Source: Naegleria gruberi
Lineage: Eukaryota
NCBI GenBank assembly: GCA_000004985.1
Contig: GG739527.1
Strand: one strand, 5' to 3'
DNA: 1,151 nucleotides
A program made the position numbers and the translations under genes. Every line of letters starts with the position of its first letter. Positions within the stretch are counted from its first letter, which is position 1. This document shows, one piece after another, positions 1 through 1,151 of this stretch. The notes beneath the pieces are model-generated. The model worked only from the letters and a program-made list of their open reading frames with translations, had not been told where the DNA came from and searched no databases.

Positions 1-267
1 TTTGTGTACAACACATTGGGCAGGTTGAATGTAGCTATGGCTGATGTGGAAGGAAGCAAAGGGAGAACTCTCCTCTGGTGGTACTGATGAAGGTTGTTAG
101 CAGGGTGGTGATGAAATCATGGGTGATTGTTGTTTGTTGTTTTTTTTGTTGAATATTTAACGGTCATAACATTCAACTTTCAGCGGTAACATATTTGTTG
201 GTGGTGAAAAAACTCAAATGCAGTGGCCAGGATTTGTTGGGACGATCTTACAGTGAGGTTGGGTGGG
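1..267 (-). other. Non-coding 3' flank, covering the 3' UTR and downstream intergenic DNA of the minus-strand gene.
   Basis: All three minus-strand frames have stops here: plus-strand TTA, CTA or TCA at 35, 97, 117, 157, 164, 173, 180, 214 and 248. There is no plus ORF longer than 17 aa apart from the overlapping 223..411 artefact. No tRNA-like or rRNA-like signatures are present. Confidence 0.7.
125..200 (-). terminator. Putative mRNA 3'-end formation and polyadenylation region. On the mRNA strand it has A-rich positioning-like tracts and AT-rich elements.
   Basis: The reverse complement of 121..200 reads ...caacaaatatgttaccgctgaaagttgaatgttatgaccgttaaatattcaacaaaaaaaacaacaaacaacaatcaccc. 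It contains 'aaatatgtta' and 'ttaaatatt' (AT-rich, efficiency-element-like but not a canonical TATATA) and an A8 run followed by (CAA)n-like A-rich sequence. It lies about 70-145 nt downstream of the stop. Yeast-type poly(A) signals are degenerate, so this is only suggestive. Confidence 0.3.
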
Positions 268-1151
268 TCAAAAAGTGAGGGTTGTAATTATGACAATCTT
301 CCTATTGTTATTCGAAAGTTGTTGAGCCAATCCATTAAAAAGAAGTGGAAAGTGAATGTTTGGAAGTTGAACATTCACCCAAGTAAATCCAGTAAATCCA
401 TTTCCATTTGAATTCATTGAGAAATGATTAATAGACGCATTATTGAATTGTTGTAAATGTGGTTGAACAATTAGGGATTGATTTTGGGGATGTCGCACCA
501 CTTGACCATTATTAATCGGTACATGATTCATCACTCTTTCATTTTGATTATTATTTCTTATAGGATTTATGTTTGCTTGCTGATTATTTCTAATAACATT
601 TTCATTCTGTTGTGGTTGATAGATAGTTTGATTTCTTGGTGGAGTATTATTCTGTTGTGTCTGTCGTGGTGGAGTTACATTCATCCTATTTCGTGGTGGA
701 CTATTAGTCTGTATCTGTCGTGTCTGTTGTGTCTGTTGTGGTGCTTGTGGACCTATTGGTGGTTGTGGTTGACCATTCACTTGAGCCTCCTCATTTTCAG
801 AGCCATTCTCTTGTCCATTTTCAACTCCAAATCTTTCCTGCAACTCCCTTGCTTTTCTATTAATTTTCAAATAGAAATTCTCCATCAAGTATGGAACATA
901 ATGTTGCCTGCAATGTTTCCAACTTTTTTCCTGAATATTTTCAATGAACTTCAACACCAAATTATCAATGAATGGAATGAGCTGGTTCTCGGTAATTAAA
1001 CGAGGAAGAGAAGGTTCTGAGAAAACTCTACGATTCTCCTCAGCAATGAAACATTTTACAATGTGAATTTTCTGGTATAGAGTAATGTGATGGTCGCAGT
1101 GGATATCGTTATAGTGACAGGATGGACATCGGCTAGAGGAGAGATGAGGTA
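268..1151 (-). CDS. 5'-truncated protein-coding gene. N-terminus lies beyond the window. Its product has a Cys/His cluster, a structured region and a long Q/N/P-rich prion-like C-terminal region. Likely a fungal nuclear regulatory protein of unknown identity.
   Basis: I checked in-frame plus-strand triplets for TTA, CTA and TCA, which would be minus-strand stops. There are none from 1149 down to the TGA stop at 270..268, which is the plus-strand 'tca' at 268..270. That gives at least 294 open codons in an AT-rich sequence where stops are frequent. The visible N-terminal translation is ...PHLSSSRCPSCHYNDIHCDHHITLYQKIHIVKCFIAEENRRVFSEPSLPRLITENQLIPFIDNLVLKFIENIQEKSWKHCRQHYVPYLMENFYLKINRKARELQERFG..., which is compositionally complex and protein-like. 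The track's 'M' at 958..960 is a TTG (plus-strand 'caa'), so it is not the true start. The first in-frame ATG in the window is at 885..883, but the frame stays open for 89 codons upstream of it. The other two minus frames over 1..267 carry several stops. Confidence 0.82.
   Translation of the reverse strand, partial: PHLSSSRCPSCHYNDIHCDHHITLYQKIHIVKCFIAEENRRVFSEPSLPRLITENQLIPFIDNLVLKFIENIQEKSWKHCRQHYVPYLMENFYLKINRKARELQERFGVENGQENGSENEEAQVNGQPQPPIGPQAPQQTQQTRQIQTNSPPRNRMNVTPPRQTQQNNTPPRNQTIYQPQQNENVIRNNQQANINPIRNNNQNERVMNHVPINNGQVVRHPQNQSLIVQPHLQQFNNASINHFSMNSNGNGFTGFTWVNVQLPNIHFPLLFNGLAQQLSNNNRKIVIITTLTF
634..702 (-). repeat. Three degenerate in-frame tandem units with a 27-30 nt period, each carrying an (S/T)PPR motif: NSPPRNRMNV, TPPRQTQQNN, TPPRNQTIYQ.
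   Basis: The plus strand has 'tcgtggtgga' at 691..700 and 664..673, and 'tcttggtgga' at 634..643. The spacings are 27 and 30 nt. The reverse complements encode S-P-P-R, T-P-P-R and T-P-P-R in the gene's frame. Confidence 0.7.
721..738 (-). repeat. Perfect 9-bp tandem duplication (tgtctgttg x2) encoding QQTQQT. A related copy, 'tctgttgtgtctgtcgtgg', lies at 651..669.
   Basis: The sequence 'tgtctgttgtgtctgttg' is read directly at 721..738. A similar 'tctgttgtgtctgtcgtgg' sits at 651..669. This is an in-frame microsatellite-like repeat inside the coding region. Confidence 0.75.
1051..1128 (-). other. Cys/His cluster (C-x2-C-x6-C-x-HH ... H ... C). Probably the C-terminal part of a zinc-binding module, such as the final CPxC pair of a RING, PHD or SP-RING-type finger, with the rest beyond the window.
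   Basis: Translation reads R-C-P-S-C-H-Y-N-D-I-H-C-D-H-H-I-T-L-Y-Q-K-I-H-I-V-K-C. That is four Cys and six His within 27 residues. 'CPxC' is a common terminal ligand pair in treble-clef and RING-type fingers. The module is cut by the window edge, so it cannot be classified. Confidence 0.35.

What the first reader, a model, noticed from the sequence alone, without database searches (positions are those of the whole stretch)
300..828. About 175-aa Q/N/P-rich prion-like low-complexity domain.
Q and N dominate this region. It also has proline-punctuated segments (QPQPPIGPQAPQQ) and N-rich runs (IRNNNQNERV, NNQQANINP). Composition of this kind is typical of yeast prion-forming or phase-separating domains in transcriptional and RNA-processing regulators. 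It also explains the extreme T/G bias of the plus strand over 480..780.
Basis: partly seen in the sequence, partly recalled or inferred. Interest (0 to 1): 0.5.

Follow-up and report, generated by a model that had tools for sequence, protein, structure and literature searches.

The report
Q/N/P-rich disordered linker, Naegleria protein
The window is a tiny Naegleria gruberi contig, and its minus strand encodes part of an uncharacterised, species-restricted protein with a real glutamine/asparagine/proline-rich low-complexity stretch; only the far half of that stretch scores as prion-like, and nothing links the protein to yeast prions, transcription or RNA processing.

Summary
Window 300-828 on the minus strand encodes residues 108-284 of an ORF that runs off the window edge. 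This stretch is 20% N, 17% Q and 10% P, and its best 80-residue window holds 36 Q/N. Codon choice (AAT, CAA, CCA) explains the plus-strand T/G bias.

The window is a 1151-bp Naegleria gruberi scaffold. A 437-aa paralogue or allele (P0001) on a large scaffold is 87-89% identical, with two indels, both in the P/Q-rich part. No relative was found outside N. gruberi, and there is no Pfam or PDB sequence match.

The prion-like reading is only partly supported:
- **PAPA:** I validated my re-implementation against a published control. The P/R/E-bearing proximal half scores negative (-0.12 to 0). The distal uncharged, aromatic-bearing Q/N half passes (0.105; 0.089 in P0001; threshold 0.05), but only where FoldIndex is close to zero.
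- **Sequence features:** there are no long Q/N runs. There is no RNA-binding or DNA-binding domain.

The most likely identity is a slippage-evolved disordered linker between a helical N-terminal region and, in P0001, a weakly PB1/ubiquitin-like C-terminal domain. This is an ordinary feature in an AT-rich protist genome, so interest is low.

The parts
271..1149 (-). Partial coding sequence of 293 codons. Its 5' end is cut by the window edge. It corresponds to residues 32-315 of the 437-aa N. gruberi protein P0001. The annotated 205-aa model P0002 starts at an internal Met within it.
   Evidence: ORF. (P0002 100% identical, from a contig of 1151 bp; P0001 87% identical). (alignment).
829..1149 (-). 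N-terminal part of ordinary complexity (ORF residues 1-107). It contains a CPSCHYNDIHCDHH Cys/His cluster and predicted helices. Q+N is 11%.
   Evidence: composition. (helices at P0001 55-138, but pLDDT only about 40-52). (4 substitutions in 108 aligned residues against P0001).
784..828 (-). Acidic start of the low-complexity stretch, GVENGQENGSENEEA (residues 108-122).
610..783 (-). P/Q-rich, R-bearing segment (residues 123-180), QVNGQPQPPIGPQAPQQTQQTRQIQTNSPPRNRMNVTPPRQTQQNNTPPRNQTIYQPQQ. It scores negative in PAPA. Both indels relative to P0001 fall here.
   Evidence: PAPA -0.12 to about 0. (7-aa and 5-aa indels). (9-nt tandem arrays at 710-740 and 736-769).
634..709 (-). Three degenerate tandem units of 27-30 nt. 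Each encodes an [S/T]PPR motif: SPPR at 691-702, TPPR at 664-675, TPPR at 634-645. All three motifs are conserved in P0001.
   Evidence: family D2: 634-652, 664-682, 691-709. (motif positions 150, 159, 169 in the ORF; 188, 197, 207 in P0001).
544..783 (-). The richest 80-residue Q/N window (residues 123-202), with 36 Q/N.
520..609 (-). N-rich segment (residues 181-210), NENVIRNNQQANINPIRNNNQNERVMNHVP. It contains a duplicated IRNN(N)Q unit.
   Evidence: (family D5: 544-568 and 577-601, 33-nt spacing).
298..525 (-). Distal segment (residues 209-284): almost uncharged, Q/N/S/G-rich and bearing F/W/H residues. This is the only part above the PAPA threshold. It is well conserved between the two copies.
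   Evidence: PAPA 0.105, FoldIndex-gated; 26 super-windows at or above 0.05. (0 charged residues in 221-280)..
268..297 (-). Nine-residue tail KIVIITTLTF plus the TGA stop, with no counterpart in P0001. Homology to P0001 ends here.
1..267 (-). Region downstream of the stop with no long ORF. It shows faint collinear similarity, in a shifted frame and with in-frame stops, to P0001 residues about 327-396.
   Evidence: frameshift-aware score 39 against 31.6 +/- 5.3 for shuffles. (one frame scores 40 against 28.1 +/- 5.4; 21 of 500 shuffles reach it). This is not significant after testing three frames.

Best explanation
The region encodes an intrinsically disordered, low-complexity linker of a species-restricted Naegleria gruberi protein of unknown function. 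In the full-length copy it joins a helical N-terminal region to a small C-terminal beta-grasp domain, possibly PB1-like.

It has two different halves. The proximal half is P/Q-rich and carries R and E. It is built from cryptic 9-nt and 27-30-nt tandem repeats, changes length by replication slippage, and is not aggregation-prone. It most plausibly acts as a flexible spacer and a site for short linear motifs, including three conserved [S/T]PPR motifs. The distal half is uncharged, Q/N/S/G-rich and studded with F, W and H. Its composition resembles prion-like 'sticker-spacer' domains, so it could mediate weak multivalent self-association.

Shown here: the composition, the repeats, the indels, the predictor scores and the lack of detectable homologues. 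Inferred: disorder, linker function and self-association. Heritable prion behaviour is not expected.
For: - **Composition and chance:**
- **Coding strand and identity as an N. gruberi predicted protein:**. The window length equals the 1151-bp contig of P0002.
- **Divergence from the second copy:**. Both indels lie in the P/Q half. The N-terminal part differs at 4 of 108 positions, and the distal half is also well conserved.
- **Cryptic tandem repeats at the DNA level:**
- **PAPA:** my re-implementation reproduces the published hnRNPA1-A score (0.0415 against 0.042). It gives -0.12 to 0 for the proximal half and 0.105 / 0.089 for the distal half of the window ORF / P0001.
- **Structure prediction:** AlphaFold2 predicts no secondary structure for P0001 139-356, with pLDDT 24-40.
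- **Flanking domains:** helices at P0001 55-138. The C-terminal 96 residues fold as beta-alpha-beta-beta-alpha-beta with mean pLDDT 65.5. Weak top matches are PB1 and ubiquitin-like domains.
- **Genome context:** the N. gruberi genome is 35% GC (PMC9928731), which favours AAT and CAA codons.
Against: - The AlphaFold2 model rests on a two-sequence alignment and is low-confidence everywhere (mean pLDDT 39). Low pLDDT in the linker is therefore only weak evidence of disorder.
- FoldIndex is near or above zero across the distal half, so that part might fold.
- The distal half is as conserved between the two copies as the N-terminal domain, which could point to a sequence-specific function rather than a compositional one.
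- No expression data, orthologue data or experimental data exist.
- The window copy may be a pseudogene or a poor-quality single-read scaffold.
Confidence: 0.6

Rival explanations
1. This is a true prion-forming or amyloid-forming domain of the yeast type. On this reading the Q/N-rich region switches the protein into a self-templating aggregate.
For: There are 36 Q/N in 80 residues. PAPA reaches 0.105 (window ORF) and 0.089 (P0001), both above the 0.05 threshold and similar to my Sup35N and Ure2N controls at about 0.10. Residues 221-280 carry no charged residue.
Against: - The PAPA-positive windows are those where FoldIndex is barely negative, and the score is driven by I, V and F rather than by Q/N.
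- The Q/N-richest part (residues 123-202) is PAPA-negative because of prolines and charges.
- No Q/N run exceeds 5 residues.
- From general knowledge, composition predictors have many false positives, and Q/N-rich low-complexity regions are common in AT-rich protists.
- PLAAC was not run.
Confidence: 0.08
2. This is a neutral by-product. On this reading the low-complexity stretch is slippage-generated filler tolerated in an AT-rich genome, and the window copy is a decaying partial duplicate or an error-prone unplaced scaffold rather than a working gene.
For: - The contig is only 1151 bp, in a Sanger assembly of 1,977 scaffolds.
- The ORF lacks its start.
- Homology to P0001 stops abruptly at about window 298 and is followed by a stop after 9 unrelated residues.
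- There is faint shifted-frame similarity with in-frame stops downstream.
- Cryptic tandem repeats and indels are present.
- No homologue is found outside N. gruberi among 1.84 billion representatives.
Against: - 879 nt remain open.
- The three [S/T]PPR motifs and the distal half are conserved between copies that otherwise differ by 11-13%.
- The downstream similarity is not statistically significant.
- dN/dS could not be computed because the DNA of the P0001 locus is not available here.
Confidence: 0.25
3. The proximal half is a multisite phospho-regulated region. On this reading the three [S/T]-P-P-R motifs, spaced about 10 residues apart, are proline-directed kinase sites that tune the protein's interactions or assembly. 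[S/T]-P-x-[K/R] is the full CDK consensus, which is established knowledge.
For: SPPR, TPPR and TPPR lie at ORF residues 150, 159 and 169. All three are conserved in P0001 at 188, 197 and 207, while neighbouring residues differ. They sit in a region predicted to lack secondary structure.
Against: The motifs derive from one tandem duplication, so their number is not independent evidence. With only two closely related sequences, conservation says little. There are no phosphoproteomic data.
Confidence: 0.1

Closest known systems
Yeast Q/N-rich prion domains (Sup35 N, Ure2 N) and prion-like domains as scored by PAPA
   Same: Q/N enrichment is 36 per 80 residues. The distal half is uncharged, and its PAPA score of 0.09-0.105 is comparable to my Sup35N and Ure2N controls.
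   Different: - Proline is 10% and charged residues about 10% overall.
- The Q/N-richest half is PAPA-negative.
- There are no long Q/N tracts and no oligopeptide repeats of the Sup35 type.
- The host protein is an orphan with no known function.
- The organism is a heterolobosean.
- Prion behaviour is untested.
Q/N-rich low-complexity regions of AT-rich protist proteomes (Dictyostelium, Plasmodium)
   Same: The genome is AT-rich (35% GC). The region is encoded by AAT/CAA-dominated codons, has cryptic tandem repeats, and varies in length between copies.
   Different: The bias is much milder than the homopolymeric N or Q tracts typical of those organisms, with a longest run of 5. How common such regions are in N. 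gruberi was not measured here.
PB1-domain scaffolds that combine a disordered, Q-rich or prion-like region with an oligomerising PB1 domain (plant ARF activators, p62/NBR1), recalled from memory as a lead

Membership tests
Q/N-rich prion-like domain (yeast type) | At least 30 Q/N within 80 consecutive residues (Michelitsch-Weissman criterion, quoted from memory) | tested here: met
   36 of 80 at ORF residues 123-202, and also 36 of 80 in P0001.
Q/N-rich prion-like domain (yeast type) | PAPA prion propensity >= 0.05 in a window that FoldIndex predicts to be disordered | tested here: inconclusive
   The distal half passes: 0.105 at residues 209-289, and 0.089 in P0001, but FoldIndex there is only -0.08 to 0. 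The proximal half fails, at -0.12 to 0. The implementation was validated on hnRNPA1-A, 0.0415 against the published 0.042.
Q/N-rich prion-like domain (yeast type) | Depletion of proline and charged residues across the domain | tested here: not met
   Over the 177 residues, P is 10.2% and R+K+D+E number 18 of 177. The feature is met only locally, at residues 221-280 with 0 charged residues.
Q/N-rich prion-like domain (yeast type) | PLAAC HMM core of at least 60 residues with a positive log-likelihood ratio | not tested
   PLAAC is not installed, and I could not reproduce its frequency tables reliably from memory.
Q/N-rich prion-like domain (yeast type) | Self-propagating amyloid or heritable aggregation shown by experiment | not testable with these tools
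   This needs a Sup35C-fusion assay, SDD-AGE or thioflavin-T assays.
Transcriptional or RNA-processing regulator carrying a prion-like domain | A recognisable DNA-binding, RNA-binding (RRM, KH, zinc finger) or transcription-factor domain in the same protein | tested here: not met
   Pfam gives 0 families for the window ORF at E <= 1. For full-length P0001 the only hit is a sub-threshold chance match (Olduvai, E 0.72). There is no PDB sequence match.
PB1-domain protein | A beta-grasp PB1 fold with significant sequence or structure similarity to known PB1 domains | tested here: inconclusive
   [not shown]

The most novel reading that the evidence does not exclude
The full-length protein is a heterolobosean-specific self-assembling scaffold. 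On this reading a PB1-like oligomerisation domain and the uncharged, aromatic-bearing Q/N-rich segment cooperate to drive condensate or filament formation, tuned by phosphorylation of the three [S/T]PPR sites. That would be an independently evolved analogue of the p62/NBR1 or ARF architecture in a deep-branching eukaryote.
Probability: 0.06. Interest if true: 0.4.

Novelty: new member of a known kind. Interest (0 to 1): 0.12.

Why it matters
It matters little as it stands. Q/N-rich low-complexity linkers are common in eukaryotes, and especially in AT-rich protists. This one sits in an orphan protein on a fragmentary scaffold.

Its limited value is as an example of a low-complexity region whose two halves behave oppositely in a prion-propensity predictor. 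It also flags that the annotated 205-aa N. gruberi model (P0002) is a truncated fragment of a gene family whose 437-aa member may carry a PB1-like domain.

If the distal half did drive assembly, it would be one of the few candidate prion-like or condensate-forming modules in Heterolobosea.

Tried and rejected
- **Plus-strand ORF 478-999 (173 aa) as the real gene:** rejected. It is the stop-free antisense shadow of the AAT, CAA and CCA codons, and the minus frame matches annotated N. gruberi proteins.
- **Pfam on the window ORF and on P0001:** nothing.
- **PDB sequence search:** only a chance PPR match at E 0.89.
- **Orthologue search:** phmmer of P0001 against 1.84 billion representatives returned only the window's own protein. 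Word-indexed searches with the N-terminal and C-terminal pieces returned nothing new. They also failed to return P0001 itself, so they carry little weight.
- **Fetching the DNA of the P0001 or P0002 loci for dN/dS and intron checks:** neither is on record.
- **Frameshift-aware alignment of the P0001 C-terminus to window 1-300:** not significant.
- **Intron beginning after the NNN codons:** I saw no canonical GT donor at the breakpoint when reading the sequence. This stays unresolved.
- **Rfam:** only a sub-threshold chance hit, 20 bits against a gathering score of 50.
- **Fold search against AFDB:** the library was not available.
- **PLAAC:** not run.
- **Literature search for prion-like or low-complexity surveys that include Naegleria:** nothing usable.

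Full report
**What is in the window**

The minus strand carries an open frame from base 1149 to 271, 293 codons, with a TGA stop at 270-268. The frame runs off the right-hand edge of the window, so the start of the gene is missing.

A search of 5.8 billion proteins returned two hits, both 'predicted protein [Naegleria gruberi]'. P0002 (205 aa) is 100% identical and comes from a contig of exactly 1151 bp, so the window is that contig. P0001 (437 aa) is 87% identical and comes from a 536,960-bp contig. P0002 is simply the part of this ORF that starts at the internal Met of MENFYLK.

N. gruberi NEG-M is a Sanger assembly of 40.9 Mb, 35% GC and 1,977 scaffolds (PMC9928731, Table 1). The window is therefore one of its many tiny unplaced scaffolds.

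**Checking the observation**

Window 300-828 corresponds to ORF residues 108-284, 177 aa.

| Measure | Value |
|---|---|
| N / Q / P in residues 108-284 | 20.3% / 16.9% / 10.2% |
| Q+N in residues 108-284 | 37% |
| Q+N in the preceding 107 residues | 11% |
| Richest 80-residue window (residues 123-202) | 36 Q/N |
| P(>=36 of 80) at 11-20% background | 1.6e-14 to 3.8e-7 |
| Q+N predicted from strand base composition | 11% |
| Entropy per 40 residues at 141-220 | about 2.9 bits |

The plus-strand T/G excess is real: T is 45% and G is 23% over 480-780. It follows directly from the dominant codons AAT (33 of 36 N), CAA (22 of 30 Q) and CCA (15 of 18 P).

Two qualifications apply. The longest pure Q/N run is five residues, and the last 45 or so residues are only moderately Q/N-rich.

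**Anatomy**

The stretch is not uniform.
- **Residues 108-122:** acidic (ENGQENGSENEE).
- **Residues 123-180:** P/Q-rich with arginines. They contain three degenerate 27-30-nt tandem units, each encoding [S/T]PPR (repeat finder family D2; motifs at residues 150, 159 and 169). They also contain 9-nt tandem arrays.
- **Residues 181-210:** N-rich, with a duplicated IRNN(N)Q unit (family D5).
- **Residues 209-284:** almost free of charge (0 charged residues in 221-280). This part is Q/N/S/G-rich with interspersed F, W, H, I and V.

**Comparison with the second copy**

P0001 aligns over its residues 32-315. The N-terminal part differs at 4 of 108 positions. The low-complexity part has more substitutions and two indels of 7 and 5 aa, both in the P/Q-rich half. 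The distal half and the three [S/T]PPR motifs are well conserved.

Homology ends abruptly after NNN, at about window 298. The window ORF then reads nine unrelated residues and stops. P0001 instead continues for about 120 residues.

Window 1-267 has no ORF. A frameshift-aware alignment to the rest of P0001 does not exceed shuffled controls (39 against 31.6 +/- 5.3). One shifted frame gives a collinear alignment containing in-frame stops, scoring 40 against 28.1 +/- 5.4, and 21 of 500 shuffles reach that score. This hints that the window copy is a decayed duplicate or has a poor-quality end, but it proves nothing. The DNA of the P0001 locus could not be obtained, so dN/dS and intron positions remain unknown.

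**Is it prion-like?**

I re-implemented PAPA, taking the Toombs et al. propensities, the 41-residue windows and the FoldIndex gate from my memory of the published code. I then checked it against a published value. hnRNPA1-A scores 0.0415 here against 0.042 in PMC6947906, which also gives the 0.05 threshold.

| Segment | PAPA result |
|---|---|
| Super-windows starting at residues 81-160 (spanning the proximal P/Q/R/E half) | -0.12 to about 0; mean propensity of residues 108-190 is -0.139 |
| Window ORF, super-windows starting at about residues 185-210 | above 0.05, best 0.105 at 209-289 |
| P0001, distal half | best 0.089 at residues 246-326 |

The result does not change when the non-homologous tail is removed. 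However, these are exactly the windows where FoldIndex climbs towards zero, and beyond them PAPA is gated out. The score there owes much to I, V and F.

The outcome is therefore mixed. The region passes the Q/N-count criterion, and one half passes PAPA. PLAAC could not be run.

**Context of the protein**

- Pfam finds nothing in the ORF or in P0001.
- The PDB sequence search finds nothing.
- phmmer against 1.84 billion representatives finds only the window's own protein.
- Two further word-indexed searches were uninformative, because they did not even recover P0001.

The gene family is thus restricted, as far as can be detected, to N. gruberi. There is no support for a role in transcription or RNA processing.

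AlphaFold2 was run on the two-sequence alignment and is low-confidence overall (mean pLDDT 39). It predicts helices at P0001 55-138 and no secondary structure for residues 139-356, with pLDDT 24-40. That is compatible with disorder but weak as evidence.

**Most likely explanation**

This is a slippage-evolved, intrinsically disordered linker with two functional flavours.
- The proline-rich half acts as a spacer bearing candidate proline-directed phosphorylation motifs. [S/T]-P-x-[K/R] is the CDK consensus, which is established knowledge.
- The uncharged, aromatic-bearing Q/N-rich half could mediate weak self-association.

Bona fide prion behaviour is unlikely (about 0.08). A purely neutral or pseudogene reading of this particular copy remains quite possible (about 0.25).

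**Novelty and score**

This is a new, undescribed member of a very well known kind of sequence feature. It would not surprise a specialist and does not open any long-standing question. Interest is 0.12.

The most novel reading the evidence does not exclude is a PB1-like domain plus a prion-like module acting as a self-assembling scaffold in a heterolobosean. Its probability is about 0.06.

Noticed in passing
window 1-298 (minus strand, downstream of the ORF): Homology to the 437-aa relative P0001 stops abruptly after the NNN codons at about 298. The ORF ends 9 residues later, and no ORF follows. One shifted frame shows faint collinear similarity to P0001 residues about 327-396, with in-frame stops (score 40 against 28.1 +/- 5.4; 21 of 500 shuffles reach it). 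Plus strand 1-299 is also 63% T+G. This may be a decayed duplicate, a frameshifted low-quality scaffold end, or an intron.
   Followed up: partly
window 1096-1125 (minus strand; ORF residues 9-18): A Cys/His cluster CPSCHYNDIHCDHH (CPSCHYNDTHCDHR in P0001) sits at the start of the visible ORF. It could be a small metal-binding knuckle. There is no Pfam match.
   Followed up: no
[not shown]
   Followed up: partly
window 634-709 (minus strand): Three [S/T]PPR motifs (SPPR, TPPR, TPPR) lie about 10 residues apart. They are encoded by a degenerate 27-30-nt tandem repeat, are conserved in both copies, and match the CDK consensus [S/T]-P-x-[K/R].
   Followed up: partly
window 478-999 (plus strand): A 173-aa plus-strand ORF rich in L, I, W and S overlaps the region. 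It is the stop-free antisense shadow of the minus-strand AAT, CAA and CCA codons, not a gene.
   Followed up: yes
window 271-888 (annotated protein P0002): The public 205-aa gene model for this contig starts at an internal Met (MENFYLK...). The open frame actually continues 88 codons further upstream to the contig edge, so the model is a truncated fragment.
   Followed up: yes
tool behaviour: Word-indexed protein searches using exact sub-sequences of P0001 did not return P0001 itself. Negative results from that tool with short queries are therefore unreliable.
   Followed up: no
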